Origin: Tieghemostelium lacteum
Lineage: Eukaryota
Reading direction: 5' to 3'
Length of the DNA: 64,000 nucleotides
NCBI GenBank assembly: GCA_001606155.1
Contig: LODT01000016.1
Coordinates: 385,870-449,869 of the forward strand
Shown here: positions 1,793 through 62,675 of the stretch, piece after piece
Layout of the letters: every line of letters begins with the position of its first letter
How positions within the stretch are numbered: the stretch's first letter is position 1
Notes under the pieces: generated by a model
Seen by the model: the letters and a program-made list of their open reading frames with translations, nothing else
What the model was told of the DNA's origin: nothing
Database searches by the model: none
Made by a program: the position numbers and the translations under genes

Positions 1793-2549
1793 ATGAAAAT
1801 ACCATGGTTTACATATAGTGATGATACTGGAAAATATGCAGTTATACTAGAGAACATTTTAATTGTAATGCTTCTTGCATTGATACCTAGTTTCTTCTTA
1901 TCCTTTTTCTCTTTAATGGGTAGTATAATTTCAATAATCATAATTTTAATTGGATTTATGGGTGCCTATCATAGAAAGAGACATATTTTATCATTTGTAA
2001 GTATTATTATTTATTGGTGTTGAAGATGTTAAATGTTGATATTAATCTCACATCAATGCATAGTATATTGTAATTATGATTATAAATTGTATGTGGTCTG
2101 GATTTTGTATAAGTATTAGTATAATTTCAATATTAAAAGGTACCCCAGAACTCTTACAATTCATGTTTACTAATCAAAAGTTACCTTGGTTGATAACTGA
2201 AATTGTATCATCTTCCATTTGGTTAATACTAGCCATTGTCACTATTGTAATTTGTTTAAAAATGAAGAGATTACTGGACATTTATCATTATGTAAAATTG
2301 TTTTCTGATCATCCTTCTTTTATTCATTCTCAATCTTCAATCAACCAAAATCAGCCTATTGTATATCAAGCTATACCATACTACCAATCATCTCCATTTC
2401 AGCAGCAACAACAGCAACAACGAATTCCACCACAAAATAAATCTTGTATAAATTACCAAATTCCTTCGTCCCACTTTTCTACTTTTTATCAACCACTTCC
2501 AAAATCTTCAACCACCTTATTACAGAATCCAAATACTCATTCATATTAA
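1793..2549 (+). CDS. Hypothetical multi-pass membrane protein with a Gln-rich tail; exons 1793..1996 and 2064..2549 (intron 1997..2063)
   Basis: Exon 1 ends ...ILSF at a canonical TTT|GTAAGT donor. The AG at 2062-2063 restores the frame of ORF 2076..2549. Hydrophobic segments occur in both exons. Confidence 0.4.
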
Positions 2550-2699
2550 TTAAAGAAGGCACAAACTGTGTCAAATTACAAAACCTCAAACAACACAACA
2601 TCTAAAACACAACACTGAATATTGAATTCTTTTCTTTTAATAAAACATTAAAATTACAATATTTTTAAAGAATACCTCTTAATCAATTATTTAACAACT

Positions 2700-3460
2700 A
2701 TAATAACAAAATAAATTTATCAAAATTAAAGAATGGAGATATAACAATTCACACACCAACCAATAGGATATCAAATTCAATATTAATCAGATTGAAACCA
2801 ATAGTTCAACAAATCAAAGGTTCAATCAACAAGAATGGAGGAATCACAATATTTGGAAATATCACAATTTGAAAAGATTCAACAATGATAATACTGAATT
2901 CAATATCATAAATCAACACAATTTTCCAATTTGTAATGATTACAAACAACAAATTGAAGAAAATAACACCATTATAATGTAATCATTCACCAACCAAATC
3001 AATTATCAACAATATATTCATCATTATAGATGATCAACAATCAATCAATATCAATAATAATAATATTATTGAATTTCTAAAACCAATTATTCAATCAATT
3101 CAATTTCAACAAGAATCATCAATATCAATTCTGAATATTTATGGATATAATTTCGGAATAGAAACATCATTCAAATTGGAGATCATTCTTCAGAATGATG
3201 AATTTTCAATCAATGAAATATCATTTAAAAATATTCAACTTTCAACTTCATTTGAATTTGAAGATTCACCAACAACTATCATCATTATTTTGAATAATCA
3301 ACAAAGTAATGAATTTCAAATTTATCCTTTAATAAACAAAATTGGGATTATAATTGGAGTTTCAATTGGATCAATTTCATTGATTTCAATTTTAATTTTA
3401 TCAATTATATTCATTAAACGAAGAAGAAATAAATTGAATTCAAATTCTTTAAAATCTTAA
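2700..3460 (+). pseudogene. Tgr-like IPT/TIG receptor, copy A: a 5'-truncated fragment carrying indels (homologous to 5211..5990 of copy B)
   Basis: Nucleotide alignment to copy B by eye shows several deletions (for example near 2858, 2975 and 3160) that break the frame. Only the last 94 codons (stalk+TM+stop, ORF 3176..3460) remain open. The fragment is preceded by the repeat-unit flank at 2560-2660. Confidence 0.55.
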
Positions 3461-3673
3461 TTTATCTTTTTATCATATTTTCTTTTTTTAATTTTTTACC
3501 CCACAAAATCAATAACAACAGTTTTTATCAAATTACAAAAAACCTCAAACAACACACCACATCAAAAACAATACCACTAAAAATGAATTCATTTCATTTA
3601 ATAAATCATTGAATTTACAATATTTTTAAATTGTATATTAAAATATACAATAGAATATTGATTTAAATTTAAT

Positions 3674-5990
3674 ATGATTCAACAACATTATCTATTATTC
3701 ATCATACTTAATATTTTAATATCACCAACAATCTCTCAAATATATGATATAGATTTTGAGATCAATACCCACGACGAATTAAAATTTAATGTAATGTTTG
3801 ATGTAACCAATCCCATTAATATCACTGAAATCAAAACAGATATCACCAATCAATCATACATTCCTTCTTGTGTAAATATTAGTTTAAATTCCCAACTATG
3901 TACAATTCAACTCAATCCAACATCACAATCAGAAAAATACACTTTCAATGATGTGAATAACCCAACAACACAATTTAAAAAGTTTGTAACACTTAAAAAT
4001 AAATTCAATTTGAAAATTGAATCACAACCAAAAACAAGAAATGAAACAATTATTAAATTCTCAGGATTATATTTTCAACCATATCCACCTGATTTTTATT
4101 ATTTAACAATCACAACAACCAATTTAAATATCAACAAAACATTCAGCAGTTCAGATGGTAAAATCAAATTCACATCACCAACAACATTTCAAATTGATAT
4201 TGGTGAATCTGTTGGTTATATAAATATATCAATGATAGAGAATACTTATCTATCACCTATTTGTCAACTTATTATCAAAGTATGTATTGATCAATTCTAT
4301 TTGATTAAGATATTTTTTTAACAATTAAACCAATTTTTCAGGACCAATTATTGAATCAATTGAATTTGAATCAAATCAAATCACAATAAGAGGTGATAAC
4401 TTTGGAAATTCAATTTATTTAGAATACATAATCATTAAAATGAATTCAACAATTCAAGATCAATCATCATTCTTTGAAAACAACAACAATATCATCATTT
4501 TCAACACATCACAAATCAATGATAACTTTACAAATCAATTTCAATTTGAAATTTCAATTGCAAATATTTCAAATTCAAATTATTTCATCTTTCAAAACAG
4601 TAAATATAATTTGATTAAATAATAGATTTAGATCATTTCTAATTACCTCACTTCAAATCTAAATAGGACCAACAATTGAATCAATTAACACAATTCCTTA
4701 TAAAGGAGGTGAAGTCACAATTTCAGGAAAGAGATTGAATTCTAAACGATTTGATAATTCATCATCTGAAATTGAAATTAAAATTGGTGATTATATTTGT
4801 TCATCACCTTCAAATATCAATAATGATGATAACACATCAATCAAATGTTATCTACCTTCATCATCAAATGATAATGATGAAAATCTTGAAATTTCAATCA
4901 AAATCGATTCAATTGAGAATTATCCATCACCAATCAAATTCACATTCAATAATCCTTCAATTTCAAGATATCAACATGAATATACCAATATTGATTCCAA
5001 TAACAATAATGATGATAGATTGATTATATTTGGTGATAATTTTGATAATTCAAAAGGAATAATTGATAAATCATCATTCACATTCAATGGAATCACAATT
5101 CAACTCAATAATACATTATTCACCAACAACAACAATAACAACAAAACAACTTTGATAATACCTCTATTTCAATTATTTAACAACAACAATATCAATAATA
5201 ACAATATAGATTTATCAAAATTAAAGAATGGAGATCTAACTATTCACACACCAACCAATAAGATATCAAATTCAATATCAATCAAATTGAAACCAATAAT
5301 TCAACAAATCAAAGGTTCAATCAACAAGAATGGAGGAATCATCACAATAATTGGAAAATATTTCAATTTGAAAAGATTCAACAATGATAATACTCAATTC
5401 AATATCATAAATCAACACAATATTCCAATTTGTAATGATTACAAACAACAAATTGAAGATAATAACACCATTAGAATTTGTAATCATTCACCAACCAAAT
5501 CAATTATCAACAATTTATTCATCATTATTGATGATCAACAATCAATCAATATCAACAATAATATTATTGAATTCCAAAAACCAATTATTCAATCAATTCA
5601 ATCTCAACAGGATTCATCAATATCAATTCTGAATATTTATGGATATAATTTCGGAATTGAAACATCATTGATTCAAATTCAAATTGGAGATATCATTCTT
5701 CAGAATGATGAGTTTTCAATCAATGAAATATCATTTGAAAATATTCAACTTTCAACTTCATTTGAATTTGAAATTCACCATTATCCATCACCATTATTGT
5801 GAATAATCAAAAAAGTAATGAATTTCAAATTTATCCTTTAATAAAGAATGATGAAACAATAAACAAAATTGGAATTATAATTGGAATTTCAATTGGATCA
5901 ATTTCATTGATTTCAATTTCAATTTTATCAATTATATTCATTAAACGAAGAAGAAATAAATTGAATTCAAATTCTTTAAAATCTTATCTC
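3674..5990 (+). pseudogene. Tgr-like IPT/TIG receptor, copy B: full-length three-exon copy with two frameshifts
   Basis: Exon 1 (3674..about 4279) has a 1-nt deletion relative to copy C just before the GTATGT donor (atttgtcaactt versus attttgacaactt), so the donor phase no longer matches exon 2 (4342..4599). Exon 3 (4667..) shifts frame at about 5770-5800 (FEFE|IHHYPSPLL*). The TM segment continues in ORF 5799..6146 and the stop is lost. Confidence 0.5.
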
Positions 5991-6217
5991 TTTCTTTTTT
6001 TAATTTTTTTTCATAACCCCACAGCAACCATATCAATAACAATTTTTATCAAATTACAAAAAACCTCAAACAACACACCCATCTATTTTTATCAACACCA
6101 CATCAAAAACACTTCACTTAAAAATGAATACATTTCAAATAATTGAAAGTAAAATATTATAAATTTAAATGAACAATAGTTAGAGATATACAAATAGAAT
6201 ATTGATTTAAATTTAAT

Positions 6218-8730
6218 ATGATTCAAAATCATTATCTATTATTATTCATACTTAATATATTAATATCAACATCAATCTCACAAATTAATTCTATTAATTT
6301 TGGGGGCAATTCAGATGATGATATAAAATTTTTGGTAAATTTTAATTTAAACAATCCCATTAATATCACTGAAATCAAAACTGATTTCACAAATCAATCA
6401 TACATTCCTTCTTGTATGAATGATAGTTTAAATTCCCAAATATGTACAATTCAACTCAATCCAACATCTCAATCAGAAAAATACACATTCATTGATGTGA
6501 ATAACCCAACAATACAATTTAACAGAATTGCAAGACTTGATAATAAATTCAATTTAAAAATTGAATCACAACCAAAAACAAGAAATGAAACAATTATTAA
6601 ATTCTCAGGATTATATTTTCAACCATATCCACCTGATTTTTATTATTTAACAATCACAACAACAAATTTAAATATCAATAAAACATTCAGCAGTTCAGAT
6701 GGTAAAATCAAATTCACATCACCAACAACATTTCAAATTGATATTGGTGAATCTGTTGGTGATATTAAAATATCAATTAAAGAGCCATCTTATCAATCAC
6801 CTATTTTGACAACTTATTATCAAAGTATGTATTGATCAATTTTATTTAATTAGGATCCATATTAATAATTAAAAAAATTTACAGGACCAATTATTGAATC
6901 AATTGAATTTGAATCAAATCAAATCACAATGAGAGGTGATAATTTTGGAAATTCAATTTATTTAGATTATATAGTCATTAAAATGAATTCAACAATTCAA
7001 GATAAATCATCAATCATTGAAAACAACAACAATATTATCATTTTCAACACATCTCAAATCAATGATAACTTTACAAATCAATTTCAATTTGAAATTTCAA
7101 TTGCAAATATTTCAAATTCAAATTATTTCATCTTTCAAAACAGTAAATATAATTTGATTAAATAATAGATTGAGATCATTTCTAATTAAATTCACTTCAA
7201 TTCTAAATAGGACCAACAATTGAATCAATCAATACTATTCCTTATAAAGGAGGTGAGATCACAATTTCAGGAAAGAGATTGAATTCTAAACGATTTGATA
7301 ATTCATTATCTGAAATTGAAATTGAAATTGGTGATTATATTTGCTCATCACCTTCAAATATCAATAATGATGATAATACATCAATCAAATGTAATCTAAC
7401 TTCATCATTAAATGAAAATGATGAAAATCTTGAAATTTCAATCAAAATTGATTCAATTGAGAATAATCCATCACCAATCAAATTCACATTCAATAATCCA
7501 ACAATTTCGAGTTATCAACATGAATATACCAATATTTATTCCAATAATGATGATAAATTGATTATATTCGGTGATAATTTTGATAATTCAAAAGGAATAA
7601 TTGATAAATCATCATTCACATTCAATGGAATCACAATTCAACTCAATAATACAATTTTCACTAATAACATCAATAACAACAAAACCACATTGATTTTACC
7701 TCTAAATCAAATATTTAGCAACAACAACAACAACAATAATAATATAGATTTATCACAATTAAAGAATGGAGATTTAACAATTCACACACCAACTAACAAG
7801 ATATCAAATTCAATATCAATCAAATTGAAACCTATAATTCAACAAATCAAAGGTTCAATCAACAAGAATGGAGGAATAATCACAATAATTGGAAAATATC
7901 TCAATTTGAAAAGATTCAACAATGATAATTCTCAGTTCAATATCATAAATCAACACAATATTTCAATTTGTAATGATTACAAACAACAAATTGAAGATAA
8001 TAACACCATTTTAATTTGTAATCATTTACCAACAAATTCAGTTATCAACAATTTGTTCATTATAATTGATGATCAACAATCAATCAATATCAACAACAAC
8101 AATAATATTATTGAATTTCAAAAACCAATTATTCAATCAATTCAATTTCAACAAAAATCACCATCAATTCTGAATATTTATGGATATAATTTCGGAATTG
8201 AAACATCATTAATTCAAATTCAAATTGGAGATATCATTCTTCAGAATGATGAATTTTCAATCAATGAAATATCATTTGAAAATATTCAAATTTCAACATC
8301 ATTTGGATTTTCAGATATACCAACACTCATCACCATAATTGTGAATAATCAATCCAGTAATGAGTTTCAATTTGATACTGAAAATAGAGGAAAATCTGGT
8401 CTATCTGCTGGGATTATAATAGGAATTGTTTTGAGTATTGTTTGTGTAGCTACAATAATTTTGTTAACTATACTATATAGAAGAAGAAAGAGTAGAGAAG
8501 TTTCAAAAGATAATGTTCAACCAGAATGTGAAATGAGAAATCTACCAAATATAATTGATACTATAGACAAAAAAACTGAAACTGATAAACCAGAACGTCC
8601 ACCTCTAGATGATAAAAGGGATATAAATATTGGAAGAGGTAACTCGGCCTTCGCAATAAGAAAACCAAAACCAATTCGTGGCTCTGATATGACAAAAAAA
8701 CTAGCTCCTTCAATTGACAATTCTGCATAA
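6218..8730 (+). CDS. Tgr-like secreted single-pass receptor with four IPT/TIG-like repeats, copy C (apparently intact); exons 6218..6824, 6885..7142, 7211..8730
   Basis: Signal peptide MIQNHYLLLFILNILISTSISQ. Phase-1 GTATGT donor at 6825 with AG at 6883-6884. GTAAAT donor at 7143 with AG at 7209-7210. IPT-like blocks start P-I-I/T-E-S-I... with GG-ITI-G-NF cores. TM GLSAGIIIGIVLSIVCVATIILLTIL is followed by a basic-acidic cytoplasmic tail of about 80 aa. Confidence 0.6.
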
Positions 8731-8796: not shown

Positions 8797-9926
8797 TTAT
8801 TTACCATTGAAGATATTGGTATTAGGATTATAGTATCTATAATCGACTTTTATAGGATCATAATATTCATTATTATTGATTTCTTGAGTTAAAGAATTAA
8901 TTTTTTCAGATGTGGTTGTTGCACAAATGGAGGCTTTTGTTAAGTAGTTATTAATACCTTTTTTGCTTGCTTTTTTAAAATACATTTTTGCAGAATCGTA
9001 ATCTGGTAGGTTGTTTACAGTACCATGGCCTCTGAAGTGCATTAGTCCAATTCCAATGTACCCTTTTGCATCACCAGATTTGCCTACACCTTCGTAGAGG
9101 TCGGCTGCCTCTTTGTAATTTACATTACACCCAATACCATAGTAATAGTAACTTGCAAGTATCAGTGGAGATGATGTTAAACTACCACCATCTTTGGCTT
9201 TAAGATGATATCTAAAACTCTGAACAAAATCACCAAACCAAGAATAGATTTTTCCCAGAGTATTATAAGCAATAAATTTAGAATAATTACTATATTTGGA
9301 AACTTCTAAATATTTGTTTGTCCATACAAAAGCATCTCTTTTGTATTCTGGATAATCAGCAAGTATAGCACCAACCAATTTTAGACATTCTTGAGACCCA
9401 TATTTTGCTCCTAACAGTGCAAATTCTAACCCTTTGTCAACACTTTTAGAAAGTCCTCCTTCCCCATTCAAATGCCCAATGGAAACCTGATATGGATAAA
9501 ATGTTAGTTAGGATTCATATATATATCATGATTCAATTAGAATATTTACCAATTCAAGTGCTTTCGGGTTATTTTTTTTGGAGGCCTGAATGTATAATTC
9601 ATAGGCACTATTTGTTTTTTTCAATCCGTAATACAAACTTCCAAGGAAGCATAAAGCAGGTGGATGTTTACCATCCTTTAGATGATTACAAATTGATATG
9701 GTTTTGATGATGTTTGTTTCAAAAAGTACATTATTACCTTTACATTGTTCTGCTTTATCACAATAGTCGTATAAAATGTTGTTGAATGCCTTGTCAAAGT
9801 GTTCATATTTGTTTGGTTCATTTGGTGACATTTCAAATGAATCTCCGTCAAGATAATACTGAATTTGGGGTAGTTCAAATTGAATAGCACCATTAATATT
9901 TCTATCTCCATCACTAATTGCATTAC

Positions 9927-9957
<31 letters not shown>

Positions 9958-12416
9958 TGATTTCTTCTTACTTTTTAGACCACTGTCATAGGATGTTGAT
10001 GTAAAATCAATTGGTTTTTTGATTTTTGATTTTTCTGGAAGTGATTGAGACATTGTTGATGTTTTGGTAAATGACCCAATTACTCTCTTGATAAAACCTG
10101 GTTTTTTATCATGTGAAATATCCAATGCTAAGGTGTTGATAAAAGGCAACTGACCAAGATTTTCATTAATTTTAGGAATTGATGTCTTTAAATGTTGCAA
10201 ATTATTGTAATTGTTATTGTTATTGTTATTATTATTATTATTATTATAATCTGCATCATCACATGGTTTATAGTTGTAGATTTTATCACAAAATAGAGTT
10301 GGTTCGACATCAATTGGGGTCATGGTAGTTGGTAATTTTAGCATAAAATCATGCGAGAAATGAATATCACCTCTGAAGGAAGTTGGAGATAAAGTATTAT
10401 ATCTGTCTCTGTCATAGGTACGTGATGAAGATGGTTCAATGGATACCATTTGTTGACTAAAGTACTCTGGAACTATTTGAGAATAAATTTCAAATTCATC
10501 ATCAGTCAACATTTGTTGAATCTGAGTAGGAGTTGGGTTGGGGATATCTGAGTTTTTTAACTTGTCGGGGATATCAGCCAAGACATTCAATATCTTTAAC
10601 TGATTTTTAGCAGCTAGAACACCAAATTCAGCGGCTTTATTGAAGAATATACGAGCTTTGGAATAACTAACATCTACACCTTTACCATCCATGTACAATT
10701 CACCAATTGCACATATGGCCATTGGCTCCTCAGCTAGAGCTGCTACAATATAGCATCGATAGGCTTCTTTGTAATTTGGGTGAATGTCAAATCTAAAACA
10801 GTTACCAACATCAAAAAATGCCTTTTTGTAGCCTAGTTTGACAGTTTTATGAAACCATTCTCTTGCAATGGTATGGTCCTTAATGACATAGTTACAGTAT
10901 TGACCTAAAGCGTAGCATGCATTTGGGTTCTTAAGATTAGCAGATTTCTTAATGAGATCAAGTCCATAGGAGATGTTCTGCGTCATTCCAACACCATGAG
11001 CTATACACATACCAAGTTCAAATATACCACCAGAGTAACCTTGAGATGCAGAGACTTTAAAGCATTTAGCTGCCAGTTCATAATTACGTTTAACAACATC
11101 TCCAAGACCAGTTCCGTAGAGTGTTCCTAAGAAGTACTGACCTTTTCCAATATCCAATTTAGCAGCTTCTAATGCCCAATACCATGTTTGTTGATAATTT
11201 GGATTCACTCTATCTTGACCAGTACCAATTCCCATATAATATTTAGCAACTTGGATCATTGCATCAACATCATTCTTTTCTCTAGCGGATTCCGTATAGA
11301 AATATAAAGCTTTAAAGTATTGCTTTTTACTGGCATATTTATCCCCTTTTTTCTTGGAATCACTTGAGTTCTCTTCATTTCTCTGTAATTGTTCTTTTTC
11401 ATTTTGATTTGCAGAGTCTAATAATTCTTTAAAAGAACCAACACTAGTTGTTTTTTTCTCATCACAGTTATCAGGTTTCAATAGATTTTCAATAGCTTTG
11501 GGATCATATTCATCTTTAGGTTCAATTTTTGGTGATGAAGGTGGTCTATTATTGTTGGTATTTTTATATGGACCATGTGCAGATCTTGGTGTTATTAATG
11601 GTGATGATCGTGATGGTGATCTTGATCTTGATGAAGAAGATCTTGATAGTGATTGAGTGACTATTAAATTAATGATTTTTGGAGTTTTGATTGGTGATTG
11701 AGATGTTGGAGCAGCATCTGATGATGGTACCATTGGAGGTGGTGGAGGAGGAATGTGGATAGAACTAGAATTTTCAGATGATTCACCATTGTTGTTTACG
11801 TTTGGTAAACGGTTAACTAGTTTTGCATAGGTTGGAATAAATGCTGACATTTCATTTGAAATTGGTAGATCAATTTCAGGATTTAGATAGTTTTCCATAT
11901 CCTCAGTAACCTTTTTTCCTTCATTTACATCAGAACTGTTATTGGGTACAGACTCCTTTTTACTTTCAGTTAATATTGGATAAGGATTTAAATAGTCTTC
12001 AAAATCTTCAACATTGGATTGTTTTTGTGGTTGTTCACTATTTTCAGTTGCACCAGAATTGTTTGTGGAAATTAACTCCTTTTCCATTTCATTTGGTACT
12101 GGTAGATCAGGATTTAAATAGTCTTCAAAATCTTCAACATTGGATTGTTTTTGAGGTTTTTCACTCTTTTCATTTCCATCAGAAATGGTATTCGACATGG
12201 ACACTTTTTCAATTACAGTTGGTATTGGTAAATTGGGATTTTGATAGTCTTCTCCAACAATCTTTAGTTCAAGCTTTTCAATTTCTTTTTCTCCAGATTT
12301 TGGATCTTTTTCTATATCAACAGACCCAATAGGATGTTGTACCACTATTGGCAATGGAGGAAGAGGCTTGTTTATAAAATTTGCATATACTGAGTTTCTA
12401 TTCGAACCTGGTGGAG

Positions 12417-12468
<52 letters not shown>

Positions 12469-12906
12469 GATATTTTCATTATTATTTTGTTGAATTTGAT
12501 TATTGGGTAGTTCAGTTTTATTTTGATTATTTTCATTATTTTGTGTTAATGGAATTTGATCATTTTGATTAGTTTGATTTGTGATATTATTACTGTTATT
12601 ATTATTGTTTTTGTTATTATTGTTATTGTTAATTGTATTTGGTCTTGTAGTTGGAAAAAATCCAATATTGTGATTGATGTGCATCATTGAAGATTCCATA
12701 CACTGGTGGCACATAAAATCGTTACAGTCCCAGCAAGCAATAACAGGTTCATTATGATGAGTACATGACGTTTCAGCCAAGATAGCAAAGGGTTTAAAAT
12801 GGTGACCTGGATGTTTGGACCCACATCGCATGCAAATAATTTTCTTACATTGTAAACAACCAATTTTTAATGGTTGGTTATGATCTAGACATCTACGTTC
12901 ACTCAT
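8797..12906 (-). CDS. B-box zinc finger + Asn/Gln-rich low complexity + Sel1-like repeat protein; exons 9550..12906 and 8797..9486 (intron 9487..9549, 63 nt)
   Basis: N-terminus has two Cys/His B-box-like fingers (CLDHNQP...C..C...H; CTHHNEP..C..C). Multiple Sel1-like repeats follow (AxxYYxGxGxxxD pattern). A GTAAAT donor sits just before the annotated stop, and an AG at 9487-9488 joins in frame to ORF 8797..9471, which also encodes Sel1-like repeats. Confidence 0.6.
9925..9958. repeat. (ATT)n coding microsatellite (poly-Asn) inside the B-box/Sel1 gene. Larger runs of the same kind occur at 12421..12468
   Basis: Seen directly. Confidence 0.9.
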
Positions 12907-18395: not shown

Positions 18396-20306
18396 TTATT
18401 TTTTAACATGTTTAGCTTCGAATCTCTCAATTATATCTTTACAGAAACAATCTTCAGCTGGAACCCATGTAGCTTGGTCGATACTGTATCCTTCCCATTT
18501 AATTAGATATTGAACTTTACCACCAACAATGGATTTCTTTAGGATATCTTCGACATTATATAATTCCTCAGAATCATTTTCAAGTTCCTCAACAATATTT
18601 ATAAAATTTTCCTTGTTCTTACTGGGAATTGATGTTGATTGTTTTTGTTGTTTTTGTGGTTGTTTCTTTGGTTGTTGTTGTGGTTCAAAATGAGTTTTAA
18701 CTTTCTTTTTAGGTCTGGAAGTTGTATCTTTACCCAAAGGTTTATCAACTACAACAACAATATCTTCAGAATCATCTGTTTTATCTATATCCAACATTAT
18801 TTCATCATCTACTTCATCTTCAGTATCATCCAAATCAATTGGAGTTAATTTTCTCTTTTTAGATTCAGCTTTCTTTTTCTTTTTAATCTTTTTCTCTTGT
18901 CTCTCTAGTTTTCTTTTCTTTTTCTCTTCCTTCTTTTTTAGTTTCTCTTGTATTTGTTTTTGTTTTTCTTTTTCCTTCTGTTGCGCTTTTACTTTGTTTA
19001 CTTTTTCTTTTTCTTTTGATACTGATTTTTTTGGTTTGGGTTTAGGTTCCCAAGTCAATAGTAAAGTGGGTCCTGTATAAACAAAATCCTGAATAAATTT
19101 CTTTTTGGAAGCTATAAACTTGAATTGTTTAAATGCTTCATATATAGTTGCCTTATTACGACTGTTGATAGCCATGAGTTCCATCTGTAGTTGTTGTTCT
19201 TGAATTTGAGGGGAAATTGGAACTTGTACAGTAGGTTGCTGTACCATAACAGGCACTGCATCTGATGATCCTACCTTTAGATTTCTCAAAGGCGGTGATT
19301 TATATTGACGGAACTCCAAATTCACAGGTATAGGAGCAACAAGATTAATAGGAGGAAGTTTATAAATAGTAGGATGTTGTAGAGGTTGTGGACTAATATG
19401 TTGTGTAGGAAGTGTAGGTGAAACTTGTTTAGGTGTTGTTGGTTGAGAAGTTCTCAATGCATTTCTCTGGTACTGTTGAAGAATCATAATCATATTATCA
19501 TTAATCATCTTTGATTTCTTGCCCGACAATAACTGAATATCATCAAAAACCTTCTTTTGAATAGAATACTGATGCCTCAAAACATTGATTTGAACATCAC
19601 TTATAAGTTTCTTATAATGCAGGCATCTAGTAAACAACTCCTTTTTCAGAGATGCTAGGACTTTTATATCAGTCGTATCCTTTACATTCCAACTTCTGTA
19701 CTGTTCAATTCTAGGTAGAGTCTGAACAATAGTCTCAATCATACCACTAAAACTAATGGCATTGGGAGGTGGTGCATGACTATTAAAATGTAGATTCAAC
19801 TCTCTAATCTGATTTAAAAGTGTCTCGAACTTGTACTTGTAGGATATAATCTTATCTTTCTCTTTCACAAGACTCAGATGAGTCTGATCTATATAATACT
19901 TTTTAACAACCTCCCATGATCGTATTGGTAGTTGTAGACTAATCTGTCTATTACCTTTCGCAATCTCTTGTGTAATGTATCTACCAATGAGTATTAAATC
20001 ATTAAATGTCGAATGCATTTCAATACGTCTTTCTATACTATTCTTCTCATAGTACAAACTAAGGTTCTTCTTATATCCTTCAATTTCAATATTTATATTA
20101 TTACTGATATAATCCACAACCTGTTTCATTATACTATAAATCTCAGAGAATTCAACTAAAGATGTTCCACTAAGTGAACTTGGAGATGATAATAAAAAGT
20201 GTTGAAGTTTTTCCGAATACAACTTTACATCAGTCAATGATTGATAGCATTGACTAATAAATTGGTGATATGGATTTGTACTGTTACTAGGTACTGTAGA
20301 TGTAGG

Positions 20307-20374
<68 letters not shown>

Positions 20375-55148: not shown

Positions 55149-57402
55149 TTAGTTTTCAGGAAGTTCATATTGTTTGAAATTATCATTTTTAAGACCCATT
55201 CTTGCTTTTCTTCTTCTTTCTTCTAGAGCATATCTTTTATAGAATATTACAAATACTACAGCTAGAGTAATGGCACAGACTGCTGCTAATACTATTCCAA
55301 CTATAATTCCAACAGACAGTTTTGATTCTGAACCACTGTTGGAACTTTCACTACTTATCTTATTAGGTATAGTTATTTCCATTACATTACTAGGTTGATT
55401 ATTAATAATTACAGATAACTGTTGTGTTGGTTGCTGATTATTTAATTTAATTTGAATGGTTTCAAATGTTAATTCGGTGATGGTGTATTGGTCTGGAGTT
55501 AGAATTGTATTTCCAATTTTAATTTGAATTAATGATTGATCATTTCCGAAATTCTCACCATTTAGAAAAATAGATGAACTATCAAATTGGTATTCAAATG
55601 AATGAATGATTGGTGATAGGAATGCGATTTTAATATCAGCATTAGATTGTTTACCATCAATTGAAACAATAATATTATTAATTACTGATGTTGTTGGTAA
55701 ATGAGTACAAATGATATTATTATCATTATTTTGTGATGGATCATAACATGATGTGTTGTTTTGTAGATTCATAATCTTTAAAACAGTATTTTCATTGTTG
55801 AATCTCTTCATATTTAGATATTTACCAATGATTGTGATTATTCCTCCATTCTTGTTGATAATTCCTTTAATTTCTTGAATTGATGGAATTAATTTAACAG
55901 GGATTGGATTAGTTGATTTACTATAAGGTGTATATACAATTATATCGCCATTTAGAATATTACTATCATTGAATAGTTGAGGTAATGATAATATTAATGA
56001 TGATTTACTACAATTTGCAATTGTATTCAATTTAATAACTTTTGAATTGAGAGTGAAATTACTACTGATCATTAATTGTTGTGAATTATCAAAATTATCA
56101 CCAAGAATTGTAATTGTATTATTAATATCTTGTTCAACTTTGGTGACTTTAGGAAGATAATAAGTGAATTTAAATGGAGGTATATCAGCTTGAACTGAAT
56201 CAATTGATAATGAAATTGGAAGATTTTCATCATTTTCAAAACCTTGAGGCATTGTACATTTCAATGTTGTGAATTTAACATCATCAATATTTGTTGGTGA
56301 TGAACATATTTTATTCCCCATTTTAATGAGGATATCAGAGGATGTTCCATTTTGTCTTTTACAATTCAAATTTTCACCTGTAATTGTAACTTCTCCACCT
56401 GAATATGAATTCAAATTACTTATAGCTGTGAGTTTTGGTTCTATAAAATTAAAATGGTGTTAGGAAAAAAATTTTGTTTTAACATATTTAAATATTTTAT
56501 TTTACATACTTGTCAATACTTTAAATGATGAAAGAGTAGAAATATTTGCGATAAAAAAATCAAAATCATAAGAATTCGAGAAATATTCAATAGATGGATA
56601 TTTTAAAATCACCTTATTATTTGAATATTCAAGATATGATGTTTGATTCTGACCAATTGAATTTATCAAAATATTTGAATAATTTGAAAATTTCGAATCT
56701 CCGAAATTATCACCAGTAATAGTAATATTATCTCCTAAAAAATTTATTGATTCTATAATTGGACCTATAAATATTGTTAGTTTTATATAAATATTTAACT
56801 AAACTATTAAACATACTTTGATAAGAAGTTTTTAAATTTTGTGTTAAAAATGCTAGTTCTATTGAATATTCAATTTCACCAACTGAATCACCTACATCAA
56901 TCTCAAATGTTGTAGAATTAATGAATGTTATATTTCCTAGTGAACTATTGAATGTTCTAGTTTCATTTAAGTTTTTTATGTTGATAAAAAGATTAAAATT
57001 AGGTGGGTATGGCTGGAAATATAAACCTGAGAATCTAAGAATTGAATTGGTATCTGGTTTTGGTTGTGATTCAACTTTTAAATTGAAAGTTTTTAATCCT
57101 ACAAAAATTGAAGAGTCTAAAGTTGGGTGGTTCTCATCATATATATAATACTTTTCTGTTTGTGAAGTTGGTTTAAGTTGAATTGTACAATTTAATTTAG
57201 ATGCCAATAAATAATAACAGTTAGGTATATATGTTTGATTTGTAAAATCAGTTGTGATTTTTGAGATATTAACAGGGTTACTAGCAAGGTATATAATGAA
57301 ATTTAATTTGGATTCTAAATTTTCTTCAAAATTAACTGATATTATTTGGGAGAAAATTGGTGATATAAGAAATAAACAATAAATTATAATTAAATATTTC
57401 AT
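55149..57402 (-). CDS. Tgr-like IPT/TIG receptor, copy D (apparently intact); exons 56817..57402, 56510..56764, 55149..56440
   Basis: Signal peptide MKYLIIIYCLFLISPIFSQ. GTATGT donors at 56816 and 56509 and acceptors tatAG at 56765 and 56441, all phase 1. Exon 3 has three IPT-like repeats, TM LSVGIIVGIVLAAVCAITLAVVFVIFY and tail KRYALEERRRKARMGLKNDNFKQYELPEN. Confidence 0.6.
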
Positions 57403-57589
57403 TGTTAAAATAAGTAAAAAATAAATATAAATATAAAATGATTTTGATAAATTTGTAAATTTAAAAATTTTTAGTTGCAAAAAATAGCTTAAGGTGTTGA
57501 AAAGGGTATTTTGGTTTTTTTTCTTAAAAATAGATTTTTAAATAATTTAATTAGAAAATAACAATATAAACTTAGACTATTTTTATACT

Positions 57590-58100: not shown

Positions 58101-58170
58101 GCTATTATATTTCCTAGTTAATTTTACTAAGATTCTAAAAATGTAAACAATATATGTTATTTTTATACTA

Positions 58171-60397
58171 TTATTGGTTAGGTTTTTTCTGATTCACTGT
58201 AGAATCTATAAAATCCTTGAATCTTTTTATTTCTTTTTTTACATTTGATCTTGTATAAAGTTTTAAAATTAAAAATATTATAACTGCAATAAATGGAAGA
58301 GGTAACAAAATACCTAATAAAAGATCAATTTGTGATTTTTTAAATGTGGCTCTTTCAGTTGGTTTTGGTGGAATATAAATTTCCAATGAATTACTTATTT
58401 GTTGATTTACAATAATTGTAATATCTTGTGTTGTTTTCAGTGATACTAGTTGAAATTCAACTTTTTCGAATGTTAATTGAGTAATGGAGTATTGGTCTGG
58501 AGTTAAAATTGTATTTCCAATTTTAATTTGAATTAATGATTGATCATTTCCGAAATTCTCGCCTTTAAGAATGATAGATGAAATTTCAGATTGGTATTCA
58601 AATGAATGAATGATTGGTGATTGGAATTCGACTTTAATATCTGTAATAGATTGTTTACCATCAATTGAAACAATGATATTATTAATTACTGATGTTGTTG
58701 GTAAATGAGTACAAATGATATTATTATCATTATTTTGTGATGGATCATAACATGATGTGTTGTTTTGTAGATTCATAATCTTTAAAACAGTATTTTCATT
58801 ATTGAATCTCTTCATATTTAGATATTTACCAATGATTGTGATTATTCCTCCATTCTTGTTGATAATTCCTTTAATTTCTTGAATTGATGGAATTAATTTA
58901 ACAGGGATTGGATTAGTTGATTTACTATAAGGTGTATATACAATAATATCACCATTTAGAATATTACTATCATTGAATAGTTGAGGTAATGATAATATTA
59001 ATGATGATTTACTACAATTTGCAATTGTATTCAATTTAATAACTTTTGAATTGAGAGTGAAATTACTACTGATCATTAATTGTTGTGAATTATCAAAATT
59101 ATCACCAAGAATTGTAATTGTATTATTAATATCTTGTTCAACTTTGGTGACTTTAGGAAGATAATAAGTGAATTTAAATGGAGGTATATCAGCTTGAACT
59201 GAATCAATTGATAATGAAATTGGAAGATTTTCATCATTTTCAAAACCTTGAGGCATTGTACATTTCAATGTTGTGAATTTAACATCATCAATATTTGTTG
59301 GTGATGAACATATTTTATTCCCCATTTTAATGAGGATATCAGAGGATGTTCCATTTTGTCTTTTACAATTCAAATTTTCACCTGTAACTGTAACTTCTCC
59401 ACCTGAATATGAATTCAAATTACTTATAGCTGTGAGTTTTGGTTCTATAAAAATTTTCAGTTGTTAGGATATTAATTTTGTTTGTTCATTTCCTATTGTA
59501 CATACTTGTCAATACTTTAAATGATGAAAGAGTAGAAATATTTGCGATAAAAAAATCAAAATCATAAGAATTCGAGAAATATTCAATAGATATAGATTTT
59601 AAAATCACCTTATTATTTGAATATTCAAGATAAGATGTTTGATTCTGGCTGATTGAATTTATCAAAATATTTGAATAATTTGAAAATTTCGAATTTCCAA
59701 AATTATCACCAGTAATAGTAATATTATCTCCTAAAAACTTTACTGATTCAATTATAGGCCCTATAATTGGGTTAGATAAGATTTTAAGTGGTCTAAATTA
59801 ATTCCACATACCTTGATAAGAAGTTTTGTAAATTGGTAAGGTAATATATTGATCAGTCATGGAGTATTCAATTTCACCCACCGAATCACCAACATCAATT
59901 TCAAATGAGGTAGAATTAATGAATGTTATATTTCCTAATAAACTATTAAATGATTTGGTTTCATTCAAATTTGTTATGTTGATTACTAAATTAAATATAG
60001 GATAGGGCTGGAAATATAGACCTGAAAATCGAAGAATAGAGTTGTTATTTGGTTTTGGTGTTGATACAACTAGTAAATTGAATTTTTTAAACATGACAAA
60101 AATGGATGTGCTTATTGTAGGGTGATTTTCATCATATATAAAATACCTTTCAGTTTGAGAAGATGGTAAAAGTTCAATTGAACAATTTATACTAGAACCA
60201 TATTTTATACAACTAGGTATATATGTTTGATTTGTAAAATCAGTTGTAATTTTAGTGATATTTACTAGGTCAGTAGAAGCTAATTGTAATCTGAATTTTA
60301 AGTAGGTTTCAGAGTTCTCTTCATAATTGACCACTGATATTTGGGTGAAAATTGGTGAAATTAAACTTAAACAATATAGTAGAATTATATATTTCAT
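58171..60397 (-). CDS. Tgr-like IPT/TIG receptor, copy E (apparently intact); exons 59812..60397, 59506..59760, 58171..59444
   Basis: Signal peptide MKYIILLYCLSLISPIFTQ. Donors at 59811 (GTATGT; intron 51 nt) and 59505 (GTATGT), and acceptors at 59761 and 59445. Its TM/tail cassette (LLLGILLPLPFIAVIIFLILKLYTRSNVKKEIKRFKDFIDSTVNQKKPNQ) differs from copy D despite a near-identical ectodomain. Confidence 0.6.
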
Positions 60398-60592
60398 ATT
60401 TTAATTAAATATAATTATGTTTTTTAAAATTTTTAAAAATAATTTATAAACTATAGTTTAAAAATAGTTCAGGTGTTGTTTGGAAATTTAGGTTTTTACA
60501 AATTCTAAAAATAGATTTAATATTGGTATATTTAAATAATATTAAATATTTATTTAAATAAAAAATCTACACAATATATGCTATTTTTACTA

Positions 60593-61870
60593 TTATTGGC
60601 TTGGATTTTTCTGATTCACTGTAGGATCTATAAAATCCTTGAATCTTTTTATTTCTTTTCTTTCATTTGATCTTGTATAAAGTTTTAAAATTAAAAATAT
60701 CGCAACGGCAATAAATGGAAGAGGTAACAAAATACCTAATAAAAGATCAATTTGTGATTTTGAAATGGTGGCTTTTTCAGTTGTTTTTAGTGGAATATAA
60801 ATTTCCAATGAATTACTTATTTGTTGATTTACAATAATTGTAATATCTTGTGTTGTTTTCAGTGATACTAGTTGAAATTCAACTTTTTCGAATGTTAATT
60901 GAGTAATGGAGTATTGGTCTGGAGTTAAAATTGTATTTCCAATTTTAATTTGAATTAATGATTGATCATTTCCGAAATTCTCACCATTTAGGATGATAGA
61001 TGAAATTTCAGATTGGAATTCAAATGAATGAATGATTGGTGATTGAAATGCAACTTTAATATCAGTATTAGATTGTTTACCATCAATTGAAACAATGATA
61101 TTATTAATTACTGATGTTGTTGGTAAATGAGTACAAATGATATTATTATCATTATTTTGTGATGGATCATAACATGATGTGTTGTTTTGTAGATTCATAA
61201 TCTTTAAAACAGTATTTTCATTATTGAATCTCTTCATATTTAGATATTTACCAATGATTGTGATTATTCCTCCATTCTTGTTGATAATTCCTTTAACTTC
61301 TTGAATTGATGGAATTAATTTAACAGGGATTGGATTAGTTGATTTACTATAAGGTGTATATACAATAATATCACCATTTAGAATATTACTATCATTGAAT
61401 AGTTGAGGTAATGATAATGTTAATGATGATTTACTACAATTTGCAATTGTATTCAATTTAATAACTTTTGAATTGAAAGTGAAATTACTACTGATCATTA
61501 ATTGTTGTGAATTATCAAAATTATCACCAAGAATTGTAATTGTATTATTAATATCTTGTTCAACCTTGGTGACTTTAGGAAGATAATAAGTGAATTTAAA
61601 TGGAGGTATATCTGCTTGAATTGAATCAATTGATAATGAAATTGGAAGATTTTCATCATTTTCAAAACCTTGAGGCATTGTACACTTTAATGTTGTGAAT
61701 TTAACATCATCAATATTTGTTGGTGATGAACATATTTTATTCCCCATTTTAATGAGGATATCAGAGGATGTTGGAATAATCATTGATCATTTCCAAAATT
61801 CTCACCTTTTAGAATGATAGATGAGCTATTGGATTGGTATTCAAATGAATGAATTAACTGTGGAAATCAC
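60593..61870 (-). pseudogene. Tgr-like copy F: 5'-truncated (exon 3 only, from mid first IPT repeat) plus an inverted/rearranged 85-bp exon-3 fragment at 61784..61870
   Basis: ORF 60593..61783 is about 97% identical to copy E exon 3 but starts at ...TSSDILIKMGNK. Sequence 61784..61870 matches an internal piece of exon 3 (about 60958..61040) out of context. No exons 1-2 lie upstream. Confidence 0.5.
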
Positions 61871-62554: not shown

Positions 62555-62675
62555 GTAACAATAGATGGAGAGTTTAAAATCACCTTATTATTCGAATATT
62601 CAAGATATGATGTTTGATTCTGACTGATTGAATTCATCAAAATATTTGAATAATTTGAACTCCCTAGTACTGATC
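62555..62675 (-). pseudogene. Orphan fragment of Tgr-like exon 2
   Basis: Aligns to 56580..56690 and 59585..59690 (…NKVIL..SISQNQTSYLEYSNN…). Confidence 0.35.

What the first reader, a model, noticed from the sequence alone, without database searches (positions are those of the whole stretch)
2560..8730. Tandem array of Tgr-like IPT/TIG receptor genes: one intact copy, one frameshifted copy, one truncated fragment
Three consecutive units of about 2.5 kb share a flank + exon1 + exon2 + exon3 + flank organisation. Copy C (6218..8730) is intact. Copy B (3674..5990) is about 93% identical but has a 1-nt deletion before the exon-1 donor and a second frameshift in the stalk. Copy A (2700..3460) is only the 3' third with several deletions, and is fused directly to the unit flank at about 2660-2700. 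This is a textbook birth-and-death array for a cell-surface family. The products (signal peptide, four IPT/TIG-like repeats, one TM) resemble the dictyostelid Tgr family, whose members tgrB1/tgrC1 mediate kin recognition.
Basis: partly seen in the sequence, partly recalled or inferred. Interest (0 to 1): 0.75.

Follow-up and report, generated by a model that had tools for sequence, protein, structure and literature searches.

The report
Tandem IPT/TIG receptor genes with pseudogenes
A chromosome segment of the social amoeba Tieghemostelium lacteum carries three head-to-tail copies of a Tgr-like cell-surface gene, of which only one is intact; it is a real but ordinary, already annotated case of how such surface-protein families duplicate and decay.

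Summary
The window is the published Tieghemostelium (Dictyostelium) lacteum assembly. Region 2567-8730 holds three head-to-tail units.

- Copy C (6218-8730, three exons) is intact. It equals the deposited protein KYR00219.1 (794 aa).
- Copy B has two 1-nt deletions and has lost the stop codon that copy A keeps. GenBank carries it as a truncated 431-aa "hypothetical protein" (DLAC_03374).
- Copy A is about 100 nt of promoter flank fused to the last third of the gene, with several frame-breaking deletions.

The product has a signal peptide, seven Ig-like beta-sandwich domains (not four), one transmembrane helix and a disordered tail. Pfam calls IPT/TIG. It aligns in the same order over 503 columns with IPT/TIG membrane proteins of other dictyostelids. 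So "Tgr-like" holds at family level. It is not a tgrB1/tgrC1 orthologue and is not arranged as a divergent pair.

- A and B share a different short transmembrane region and tail.
- Amino-acid divergence concentrates in the N-terminal domain.
- Replacements are equal on the B and C lineages, so B died recently.
- The genome is 454-only, so the T4-to-T3 frameshift needs read-level checking.
- A second array at 55-62 kb shows clear gene conversion.

Novelty and interest are low.

The parts
2567..2669 (+). Copy A: remnant of the unit's upstream (promoter) flank
   Evidence: Three-way flank alignment with 3517-3630 (B) and 6045-6170 (C). Homology to the other units starts at about 2567, which is the left edge of the array.
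2670..3462 (+). Copy A: degenerate 3' third of the gene (domains D5'-D7, short transmembrane region and tail, TAA at 3458-3460), joined directly to the flank
   Evidence: BLAST 2693-3323 = 7726-8373. In the shared part A is 93.9% identical to B and 90.0% to C. Deletions of 4, 2, 10 and 2 nt break the frame, and there are stops in every frame.
3463..3673 (+). Inter-unit spacer: 3' flank of A and promoter flank of B
   Evidence: 3479-3673 aligns to 5991-6217 at 81.5%.
3674..4279 (+). Copy B exon 1 (606 nt instead of 607; 1-nt deletion between 4259 and 4260 in a T run)
   Evidence: Alignment. The translation shows the frame change SPILTTYYQ -> SPICQLIIK. The spliced product stops at codon 218.
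4342..4599 (+). Copy B exon 2 (one Ig-like domain, 96% identical to C)
   Evidence: The GenBank model KYR00218.1 starts at the Met at 4440.
4667..5990 (+). Copy B exon 3. It has a second 1-nt deletion between 5772 and 5773. The short transmembrane segment and tail are encoded at about 5868-5985. The stop codon seen in copy A is absent.
   Evidence: KYR00218.1 ends at the premature stop after the second frameshift (~5799-5802).
5991..6217 (+). Inter-unit spacer: 3' flank of B and promoter flank of C
6218..6824 (+). Copy C exon 1: signal peptide and domains D1-D2
   Evidence: Gene model, identical to KYR00219.1. AF2 helix at residues 2-19 and beta-sandwiches at 23-105 and 114-200.
6885..7142 (+). 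Copy C exon 2: a phase 1-1 exon that encodes exactly domain D3 (residues 203-288)
7211..8730 (+). Copy C exon 3: domains D4-D7, transmembrane helix (residues 688-715, about 8407-8490) and a disordered tail of about 80 aa; stop codon at 8728-8730
   Evidence: Pfam TIG on D4 scores 27.4 bits; D6 (15.4) and D7 (17.2) are below the cut-off.
8374..8730 (+). C-specific 3' end (stalk end, transmembrane helix, long tail). It is shared with the paralogue P0001 but not with copies A and B.
   Evidence: B/C nucleotide homology ends at 8373/5832. P0001 aligns to 7213-8727. Only a 19-nt 'GIIIGI' match links the B and C tails (35 of 1000 shuffles reach it).
55152..57402 (-). Related paralogue in a second array: KYR00242.1 (P0003, 710 aa)
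   Evidence: tblastn, exact look-up, Pfam TIG 62.6 bits.
58174..60397 (-). Related paralogue in the second array: KYR00243.1 (P0004, 704 aa)
   Evidence: Every exon matches 100%.
60593..61783 (-). 5'-truncated third copy of the second array (396-codon open frame, no signal peptide)

Best explanation
The region is a head-to-tail array of three units (about 2.5 kb each when complete). They belong to a subfamily of Tgr-like IPT/TIG type I membrane glycoprotein genes that has expanded in Tieghemostelium lacteum.

**Shown.**
- Copy C is the one functional-looking gene. It has a signal peptide, seven Ig-like beta-sandwich domains carrying 16 N-glycosylation sequons, one transmembrane helix and a disordered cytoplasmic tail of about 80 aa.
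- Copy B is a near-full-length copy disabled by two 1-nt deletions, and it lacks the stop codon that copy A keeps. Copy A is a remnant in which about 1.5 kb between the promoter flank and codon ~455 is missing, with further small frame-breaking deletions.
- The ectodomain-coding parts of A, B and C are 90-94% identical. A and B share a 3' end (short transmembrane segment plus a 15-aa tail) that is unrelated at nucleotide level to C's.
- B evolved under constraint for most of its history. dN/dS for B vs C is 0.40. Using P0001 as outgroup there are 36 replacements on the B lineage and 35 on the C lineage, and B has no nonsense codon apart from the frameshifts.
- Amino-acid divergence is concentrated in the membrane-distal signal-peptide/D1 region.

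**Inferred.**
- The array arose by unequal crossing-over or tandem duplication.
- The abrupt homology break at 8373/5832 is the edge of a partial gene-conversion or recombination tract. That tract overwrote the flank and ectodomain of an older short-tailed neighbour (the ancestor of A and B) with C-like sequence. The short-tailed unit then duplicated, and both of its copies decayed recently.
- By homology the intact product is a cell-surface adhesion or recognition molecule whose distal domain carries specificity.
For: - **Repeat structure and lesions:**
- **Organism and annotation:** P0004 is encoded exon for exon at 60397-58174. The copy C product is KYR00219.1 and copy B is KYR00218.1/DLAC_03374, both on the 563,479-bp contig.
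- **Protein architecture:** Pfam TIG; AF2 model with mean pLDDT 72.9; hydropathy and sequons; Foldseek matches that include plexin A1 IPT domains and MET.
- **Family relationship:** the profile search gives 293 hits at E<=1e-3. Every one of the strongest matches (E<1e-90) that was named (9 of 10) is a T. lacteum paralogue. hhalign gives probability 99.96% and E 3.7e-39 over 503 columns in the same order against IPT/TIG membrane proteins from groups 4, 3 and 1.
- **Selection:** dN/dS is 0.40 overall and 0.77 in SP+D1. Nonsynonymous differences are heterogeneous across domains (chi-square P 2.6e-8) while synonymous ones are not (P 0.21). Lineage counts are symmetric, 36 vs 35.
- **C's long tail looks ancestral:** it aligns with the tail of the closest paralogue P0001.
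- **Partial conversion is demonstrably active in this family in the same window:** in the second array two genes are 72-82% identical in the 5' third, 99-100% over about 750 nt, then 71% falling to 47%.
- **Literature:** D. lacteum has 76 IPT/TIG proteins, treated there as the Tgr family (PMC4931340). tgr genes evolve by birth and death and include many pseudogenes (PMC12745789).
Against: - The assembly is 454-only at 29x (PMC4931340). The first frameshift in B is a T4-to-T3 homopolymer change, the typical 454 error.
- B shows no excess of replacements over C. Its pseudogene status therefore rests on two single-base calls plus the absent stop codon.
- No transcript or read data could be consulted.
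- The conversion-tract explanation of the 3' break is an inference. A duplication with a breakpoint at 8373 plus captured sequence would look the same.
- Evidence for conversion within this array itself is weak. A 117-nt identical run crosses the exon 2/intron 2 border (0 of 5000 permutations reach it under a uniform model), but synonymous divergence is homogeneous.
- Function is inferred from family resemblance only.
Confidence: 0.8

Rival explanations
1. Copy B is not a pseudogene in the living organism. One or both single-base deletions are 454 consensus errors. B would then encode either a full short-tailed membrane protein (both are errors) or a secreted seven-domain ectodomain lacking the transmembrane helix (only the first is an error).
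For: - The genome was sequenced with 454 only, at 29x, and assembled with Newbler.
- The first deletion shortens a T4 run to T3.
- With the two bases restored, B reads open for 781 codons with no nonsense codon.
- dN/dS is 0.40, and replacements are equal on the B and C lineages.
- All A/B indels in the short-tail segment are multiples of three.
Against: - The second lesion is loss of a single G (GAAGATT -> GAAATT), which is not a typical homopolymer miscall.
- Two independent errors within 1.5 kb at 29x are unlikely.
- B also lacks the stop codon that copy A keeps, so its frame runs 57 codons into C's promoter region.
- The neighbouring copy A is unquestionably decayed, so decay does occur in this lineage.
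Confidence: 0.13
2. The decayed copies are kept as a sequence reservoir. Gene conversion from A and B (and from other paralogues) into C diversifies a polymorphic recognition receptor. That would be a group-3 counterpart of the recombining tgrB/C locus of D. discoideum.
For: - Sharp mosaic identity in the second array of the same window shows that conversion operates in this family.
- A 117-nt identical B/C tract crosses an exon-intron border.
- Replacements cluster in the distal domain, on the intact C lineage as well (11 of 107 sites against 24 of 556 elsewhere).
- Intralocus recombination among tgrBC duplicates and pseudogenes is documented in D. discoideum (PMC12745789).
Against: - Synonymous divergence between B and C is homogeneous across domains (P 0.21).
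- D1 has dN/dS 0.77, not above 1.
- No population data are available.
- These genes are head-to-tail, not a divergent receptor/ligand pair, and are not the nearest D. lacteum relatives of tgrB1/C1.
- Pseudogenes in arrays are expected without any reservoir function.
Confidence: 0.08
3. The array is an assembly artefact: reads from one gene, or from dispersed paralogues, were wrongly laid out in tandem.
For: Repetitive gene families are hard to assemble. The tgr literature reports that short reads are unreliable for this family (bioRxiv 10.1101/2025.10.22.684067, section headings).
Against: - The units differ by about 9% and by many indels. Each has distinct junctions, and the flanks are in a consistent order.
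- The assembly was finished with fosmid maps and primer walking into 54 gap-free contigs.
- Unique genes flank the array on both sides.
Confidence: 0.02

Closest known systems
[quoted passage not shown]
   Same: - It is a type I membrane glycoprotein with a string of extracellular IPT/TIG Ig-like domains.
- It belongs to a large family that expands within lineages, with clustered duplicates and many pseudogenes and fragments.
- Divergence is fastest in an extracellular domain.
- It aligns in the same order with a D. discoideum AX4 IPT/TIG membrane protein (Q7KWM8) and its relatives.
   Different: - It is not an orthologue of tgrB1/tgrC1. The literature finds tgrB1 only in group 4 and tgrC1 only in D. 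discoideum, and the best D. lacteum matches are DLA_09656 and DLA_01693.
- It is shorter: seven domains, with the alignment ending at profile column 627 of 875, so the membrane-proximal domains of the longer proteins have no counterpart.
- Its transmembrane motif is GIIIGIVL, not the (K/R)WL(I/V)PAIVVP motif shared by most of the compared proteins.
- The genes are head-to-tail rather than a divergent pair sharing a promoter.
- Polymorphism, developmental expression and function are untested.
T. lacteum paralogues of the same subfamily (KYQ... P0001 on contig 880,875; P0002, P0005-P0010; KYR00242.1 and KYR00243.1 in this window)
   Same: - They are 41-84% identical over nearly the full length, with the same intron positions at domain borders and the same domain order.
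- Several deposited models are N- or C-truncated, like copy B.
   Different: - Tails and transmembrane segments differ between members.
- Copy C's long tail is shared only with P0001, and only loosely (by eye roughly 55% identical in the tail, against about 84% overall).
Metazoan IPT/TIG receptors (plexins, MET/RON)
   Same: Stacked IPT-type beta-sandwich domains in a single-pass receptor. Foldseek matches plexin A1 IPT3-IPT6 (5l7n, E 3e-9) and MET (6gcu). The A1 profile hits the MET IPT region 5lsp at E 0.003.
   Different: There is no sema or PSI domain and no kinase or GAP domain. Sequence identity is about 10-15%. The resemblance is at the level of the domain fold only.

Membership tests
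Dictyostelid Tgr / IPT-TIG membrane protein family (broad sense) | N-terminal signal peptide and a single C-terminal transmembrane helix (type I topology) | tested here: met
   The AF2 model has helices at residues 2-19 and 688-715. The highest Kyte-Doolittle 19-residue window (3.0) starts at residue 689 and is followed by RRRK.
Dictyostelid Tgr / IPT-TIG membrane protein family (broad sense) | Several extracellular IPT/TIG (E-set Ig-like) domains | tested here: met
   Pfam PF01833 scores 26.8 bits against a cut-off of 20.9. D4 alone scores 27.4; D6 (15.4) and D7 (17.2) are below the cut-off. The AF2 model has seven beta-sandwich domains. Foldseek matches plexin IPT domains.
Dictyostelid Tgr / IPT-TIG membrane protein family (broad sense) | Sequence homology extending over several domains to IPT/TIG membrane proteins of other dictyostelids, including D. 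discoideum | tested here: met
   hhalign gives probability 99.96%, E 3.7e-39 and 503 columns in the same order against an alignment of D. discoideum AX4 Q7KWM8, D. citrinum, D. firmibasis, D. purpureum, C. fasciculata and T. lacteum proteins. BLASTP against Q7KWM8 gives 25% identity over 439 aa, E 4e-8. Whole-library profile E-values are 4e-25 (C. fasciculata), 1e-19 (D. firmibasis) and 1.8e-13 (D. purpureum).
Dictyostelid Tgr / IPT-TIG membrane protein family (broad sense) | Direct similarity to proteins explicitly named Tgr (TgrB1, TgrC1 and others) | tested here: inconclusive
   No sequence carrying a tgr name could be retrieved. The sources name the D. discoideum hit only 'immunoglobulin E-set domain-containing protein', and afdb50 was unavailable. 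P0124 (D. purpureum, 883 aa) and P0081 (C. fasciculata, 878 aa) have the same lengths as the proteins that PMC4931340 lists as best homologues of tgrB1 and tgrC1, but their identity with those proteins was not verified.
tgrB1/tgrC1 allorecognition pair (narrow sense) | Orthology to tgrB1 or tgrC1 | tested here: not met
   From the literature: tgrB1 is conserved only in group 4 and tgrC1/tgrD1 only in D. discoideum (PMC4931340 Table 3). The best D. lacteum matches are DLA_09656 (846 aa) and DLA_01693 (799 aa), not DLA(C)_03374/5. All named close relatives found here are T. lacteum paralogues.
tgrB1/tgrC1 allorecognition pair (narrow sense) | Two different genes arranged head-to-head and sharing one promoter | tested here: not met
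   All three units are on the + strand, head-to-tail. The second array is likewise uniformly on the - strand.
tgrB1/tgrC1 allorecognition pair (narrow sense) | Extreme polymorphism between natural isolates, and matched-allele-dependent cell sorting | not testable with these tools
   Only one genome of the species is available here. The only related observation is fast amino-acid divergence of domain D1 between the paralogues.
tgrB1/tgrC1 allorecognition pair (narrow sense) | Induction at aggregation | not tested
   The D. lacteum RNA-seq table (Supplementary Data 6 of PMC4931340) is held only in part. It contains no entry for 03374 or 03375.
Processed or unprocessed pseudogene (copies A and B) | Homology to a functional paralogue together with lesions that disrupt the frame; introns retained (unprocessed) | tested here: met
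   B keeps both introns and has two 1-nt deletions. A has a 1.5-kb internal deletion and four out-of-frame deletions. Caveat: the assembly is 454-only.

The most novel reading that the evidence does not exclude
The locus might be a group-3 recognition locus that evolved independently of the tgrBC locus of D. discoideum. It would pair a long-tailed (signalling) gene with short-tailed (ligand-like) neighbours. The neighbours would be recently inactivated, or would really be intact or secreted forms hidden by 454 errors. Partial gene conversion between units and paralogues would keep reshuffling the fast-evolving membrane-distal domain. That would give T. lacteum its own polymorphic kin-discrimination system.
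Probability: 0.06. Interest if true: 0.55.

Novelty: already known. Interest (0 to 1): 0.15.

Why it matters
Mostly it does not. The intact gene and the family expansion are already in GenBank and in the genome paper, and birth-and-death evolution of tgr-type genes is well documented.

There are three modest points of value:
- **Annotation.** DLAC_03374 (KYR00218.1, 431 aa) is an open-frame slice of a frameshifted copy, not a bona fide protein. Fragment A and the truncated third copy of the second array (both apparently without a deposited model) are also gene remnants. Counts such as "76 IPT/TIG proteins" therefore include decayed members.
- **Evolutionary mechanism.** The window gives a compact, datable example (dS about 0.16) of duplication, 3'-end swapping and partial gene conversion in a group-3 dictyostelid, with amino-acid change focused on the distal domain.
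- **Follow-up.** If T. lacteum isolates were resequenced, this subfamily would be a reasonable place to look for recognition polymorphism outside group 4.

Tried and rejected
- **Missing annotation for copy C.** The first protein search found no match better than 82%, which suggested C was unannotated. An exact look-up showed it is KYR00219.1, hidden behind a 56-aa cluster representative. The idea was rejected.
- **Genomic context of paralogues.** The look-up of encoding contigs for P0004 and P0001 returned nothing on record, so the paralogue loci could not be compared at DNA level.
- **afdb50 fold search.** The library that would have named D. discoideum Tgr models was not available. PDB Foldseek gave only generic multi-Ig and IPT matches.
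- **Naming the D. discoideum hit.** A literature search for Q7KWM8 found nothing, and the three cluster look-ups returned no tgr-named protein.
- **Expression.** The supplement search for DLA(C)_03374/5 found nothing.
- **Splice rescue of copy B.** Alternative donors and acceptors near the junction all give early stops. Rejected.
- **Gene conversion between B and C.** The longest identical run is significant against a uniform model, but synonymous divergence is homogeneous. Left as inconclusive.
- **Homology of the A/B tail to the C tail.** Only a 19-nt match was found, reached by 35 of 1000 shuffles. This is too weak to call.
- **Apparent in-frame stop in B at codon 656.** It is an artefact of gap placement and disappears in the three-way alignment.
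- **tRNA genes.** None in the window.

Full report
**Source of the window.** The sequence is AT-rich (about 22-39% G+C in 1-kb windows, 22-27% across the array) and comes from the reference assembly of Tieghemostelium (formerly Dictyostelium) lacteum, a group-3 dictyostelid. The deposited protein KYR00243.1 (P0004) is encoded exon for exon at 60397-58174. Exact look-ups place KYR00218.1, KYR00219.1, KYR00242.1 and KYR00243.1 on one contig of 563,479 bp. The genome was published by Gloeckner et al. 2016 (PMC4931340). It was sequenced with 454 only, at 29x, assembled with Newbler, and finished with fosmid maps and primer walking into 54 gap-free contigs.

BLAST of unit C against the window gives two strong same-strand matches. 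Copy B matches at 3479-5832 = 5991-8373 (89.5% over 2396 columns). Copy A matches at 2693-3323 = 7726-8373 (87.7%). Weaker matches on the minus strand at 55-62 kb belong to other paralogues. A global alignment of B and C gives 91.0% identity excluding gaps. By part the values are exon 1 89.1%, exon 2 96.1%, exon 3 92.8%, intron 1 81.7%, intron 2 94.0% and upstream flank 81.5%.

**Copy C.**
- The exons are 6218-6824, 6885-7142 and 7211-8730, with GT..AG introns of 60 and 68 nt. They give an open frame of 794 codons.
- The product is letter for letter KYR00219.1 / UniProt A0A152A1Z1, "IPT/TIG domain-containing protein".
- My first search seemed to show that C was unannotated, because the best hit was only 82% identical. 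That was an artefact: the 90% cluster holding C is represented by a 56-residue fragment.

**Copy B.**
- It starts at the homologous ATG (3674).
- It lacks one T of a T4 run, between 4259 and 4260, 20 nt before the exon-1 donor. Exon 1 is therefore 606 nt instead of 607, and the spliced message stops at codon 218.
- No alternative GT or AG site in the ranges scanned (donors 4220-4340, acceptors 4300-4400) restores the frame. The only in-phase alternatives give stops, including a TGA junction codon for the donor 4 nt downstream.
- A second single-base loss lies between 5772 and 5773 in the last ectodomain. Here A reads GAAGATT and B reads GAAATT.
- B also lacks the TAA that closes copy A's frame, so its frame runs 57 codons into the spacer.
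- GenBank carries B as DLAC_03374 (KYR00218.1), a 431-aa "hypothetical protein". The model runs from an internal Met in exon 2 (4440) to the premature stop after the second frameshift. This is an annotation artefact of a broken gene.

**Copy A.**
- About 100 nt of the unit's upstream flank (2567-2669) aligns with the flanks of B and C.
- That flank is joined at 2669/2670 directly to the equivalent of B position ~5156. About 1.5 kb is missing, covering the rest of the promoter, the ATG, both introns and about 455 codons.
- The retained third has deletions of 9, 4, 2, 10, 2 and 18 nt, a 3-nt length difference near 3053, and stops in all frames.

**The encoded protein.**
- Pfam finds IPT/TIG (PF01833) above its curated cut-off: 26.8 bits for the whole protein. 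Domain 4 alone scores 27.4 bits; domains 6 and 7 score 15-17 bits, below the cut-off.
- An AlphaFold2 model built on 11 family sequences (mean pLDDT 72.9) shows an N-terminal helix (residues 2-19, the signal peptide). Seven beta-sandwich domains follow (about 23-105, 114-200, 205-288, 291-383, 386-492, 497-591 and 595-676), then a transmembrane helix (688-715) and a disordered tail.
- The ectodomain has 16 N-glycosylation sequons. The transmembrane segment is the hydropathy maximum and is followed by RRRK.
- Exon 2 is a phase 1-1 exon that encodes exactly domain 3.
- Foldseek against the PDB returns multi-Ig ectodomains, including plexin A1 (whole ectodomain and IPT3-IPT6) and MET. A sequence profile weakly hits the MET IPT region.
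The rest of the architecture is right.

**Is it Tgr-like?** At family level, yes.
- *Search results.* A profile of the T. lacteum paralogues searched against 1.8 billion representatives gives 293 hits at E<=1e-3. All of the strongest matches (E<1e-90) that were named (9 of 10) are T. lacteum proteins. Further hits include IPT/TIG membrane proteins of Polysphondylium violaceum, Cavenderia fasciculata (4e-25), D. firmibasis (1e-19) and D. purpureum (1.8e-13).
- *Alignment.* A profile-profile comparison with an alignment of nine IPT/TIG membrane proteins from D. discoideum (AX4 Q7KWM8), D. citrinum, D. firmibasis, D. purpureum, C. fasciculata and T. lacteum gives probability 99.96%, E 3.7e-39 and 503 columns aligned in the same order, from domain 2 to domain 7.
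- *Differences.* The longer proteins continue for about 250 more columns before their membrane anchor. Most of them share a juxtamembrane motif (K/R)WL(I/V)PAIVVP, which the window's subfamily replaces with GIIIGIVL. The window genes therefore belong to a shortened branch that has expanded within T. lacteum.
- *Literature.* The genome paper counts 76 IPT/TIG proteins in D. lacteum and discusses them as the Tgr family. It finds tgrB1 conserved only in group 4 and tgrC1/tgrD1 only in D. discoideum. It lists DLA_09656 and DLA_01693, not these genes, as the best D. lacteum matches.
- *Gap.* I could not retrieve any protein actually named Tgr. The AFDB library was unavailable and the sources give generic names. 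Direct comparison with TgrB1/TgrC1 therefore remains undone.
- *Arrangement.* The head-to-head, shared-promoter arrangement that defines the tgrB1/tgrC1 pair is absent. All units here are head-to-tail.

- B/C nucleotide homology ends abruptly at 5832/8373. A and B then share about 160 nt that encode a different stalk end, a different transmembrane segment (IGIIIG(I/V)SIGSISLISI...) and a 15-residue tail (KRRRNKLNSNSLKS).
- C continues with its own transmembrane helix and an 80-residue tail. C's tail aligns with that of P0001, the closest paralogue on another contig. The long tail is therefore probably ancestral to this small clade.
- Only a 19-nt "GIIIGI" match links the two kinds of tail, and 35 of 1000 shuffles reach it.
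- The most economical reading is an inference. An older short-tailed neighbour had its flank and ectodomain overwritten by C-like sequence, through partial gene conversion or unequal recombination. That unit then duplicated to give A and B; in the shared part A-B identity is 93.9%, B-C 92.4% and A-C 90.0%.
- The same window shows that such partial homogenisation happens in this family. In the second array, KYR00242.1 and KYR00243.1 are 72-82% identical in the 5' third, 99-100% over about 750 nt of exon 3, then 71% falling to 47%.

**Selection and timing.**
- With the two frameshifts repaired, B vs C gives dS 0.16, dN 0.065 and dN/dS 0.40.
- Synonymous differences are spread evenly over the domains (chi-square P 0.21). 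Nonsynonymous ones are not (P 2.6e-8): 39.5 of 100 fall in the signal peptide plus domain 1, where dN/dS is 0.77.
- With P0001 as outgroup, 36 replacements map to the B lineage and 35 to the C lineage. In domain 1 the counts are 13 and 11.
- B therefore evolved under much the same constraint as C for most of its history, and it has no nonsense codon apart from the frameshifts. It was inactivated recently, or not at all if the single-base calls are wrong.
- The intact gene itself changes fastest in its membrane-distal domain. A recognition or adhesion surface would be expected to behave this way, although relaxed constraint fits equally well.

**Caveat on copy B.** The assembly is 454-only, and the first lesion is a homopolymer length change. 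I give about 13% to the rival that B is functional in vivo, either fully or as a secreted ectodomain. The second lesion (loss of a lone G), the absent stop codon and the certain decay of copy A argue for a true pseudogene. An assembly artefact for the whole array is very unlikely: the units differ by about 9% and by many indels, have ordered junctions, and sit between unique genes.

**Mechanism, with what is shown and what is inferred.**
- Shown: the three-unit head-to-tail structure, the lesions, the protein architecture, the family homology, the constraint pattern, and conversion in the neighbouring array.
- Inferred: origin by unequal crossing-over and partial conversion, recent death of B, and the role of C as a cell-surface adhesion or recognition molecule whose distal domain carries specificity.
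- Not supported by any test here: a kin-recognition function like that of TgrB1/TgrC1.

**Novelty.** The intact gene, the (mis-modelled) second copy and the family expansion are already public. Birth-and-death evolution with numerous pseudogenes is the established picture for tgr genes: AX4 has 38 genes and 26 pseudogenes, and even D. purpureum has mostly lineage-specific sets (PMC12745789; see also bioRxiv 10.1101/2025.10.22.684067). The finding is a correct and careful reading of an ordinary locus. Its residual value lies in correcting the annotation and in providing a tidy example of 3'-end swapping and conversion in a group-3 species.

Noticed in passing
window 55152-62659 (minus strand): There is a second head-to-tail array of the same subfamily. 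It holds KYR00242.1 (57402-55152), KYR00243.1 (60397-58174), a 5'-truncated third copy (open frame 61783-60593, 396 codons, no signal peptide; 97-100% identical to the 3' part of KYR00243.1 over most of the shared part, 91% at its 3' end) and a 101-nt exon-2 scrap at 62559-62659. The two full genes are a sharp mosaic: 72-82% identical in the 5' third, 99-100% over about 750 nt of exon 3, then 71% falling to 47%. This is a clear signature of recent partial gene conversion.
   Followed up: partly
window 3674-5990 (GenBank KYR00218.1 / DLAC_03374): The deposited 431-aa 'hypothetical protein' is only the open-frame slice of frameshifted copy B. It runs from an internal Met at 4440 to the premature stop near 5800 and has neither signal peptide nor transmembrane helix. 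Other deposited subfamily members are also truncated (P0005, P0008 and P0007 lack the N-terminus, P0010 the C-terminus), and P0007 is named 'Pol protein'. The published count of IPT/TIG proteins probably includes decayed genes.
   Followed up: partly
T. lacteum contig of 880,875 bp (not in the window): Six consecutively numbered IPT/TIG proteins (KYQ93829-KYQ93834, 503-747 aa) fall in one 90%-identity cluster. This looks like another young tandem array, on the same contig as P0001, the closest paralogue of copy C.
   Followed up: no
window 22058-26188 (+): A 1376-codon open frame has a ComC supersandwich domain plus DUF7035, DUF7743 and DUF7949. It is a ComC-like large surface protein, another member of the 'exposed protein' class of dictyostelids.
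   Followed up: no
window 18396-20504 (-): A 702-codon open frame ends in a chromodomain (Pfam Chromo, E 4.4e-14), with no other domain at E<=1e-5. Whether it is a chromatin protein or a remnant of a chromo-integrase element was not examined.
   Followed up: no
window 8797-12906 (-): A Sel1-repeat protein with an N-terminal B-box zinc finger lies convergent to copy C. Its 3' end starts about 70 nt after copy C's stop codon, so the array's right edge is tightly bounded by a unique gene.
   Followed up: no
window 2000-8000: The sense strand of the array shows strong strand composition bias (GC skew -0.29 to -0.41, AT skew +0.09 to +0.18). This reflects the G-poor, A-rich codon usage of these Asn/Ile/Ser/Gln-rich genes, and the bias ends at the convergent downstream gene.
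   Followed up: no
proteins P0081, P0031, P0011, P0164/P0012 vs copy C and P0001-P0008: Most of the longer dictyostelid IPT/TIG membrane proteins compared share a conserved juxtamembrane/transmembrane motif, (K/R)WL(I/V)PAIV(V/I)P. This holds across groups 1, 3 and 4. Most full-length members of the window's subfamily instead have G(L)S.GIIIGIVL (KYR00243.1/P0004 differs). The two motifs may mark two deep classes of Tgr-like proteins.
   Followed up: no
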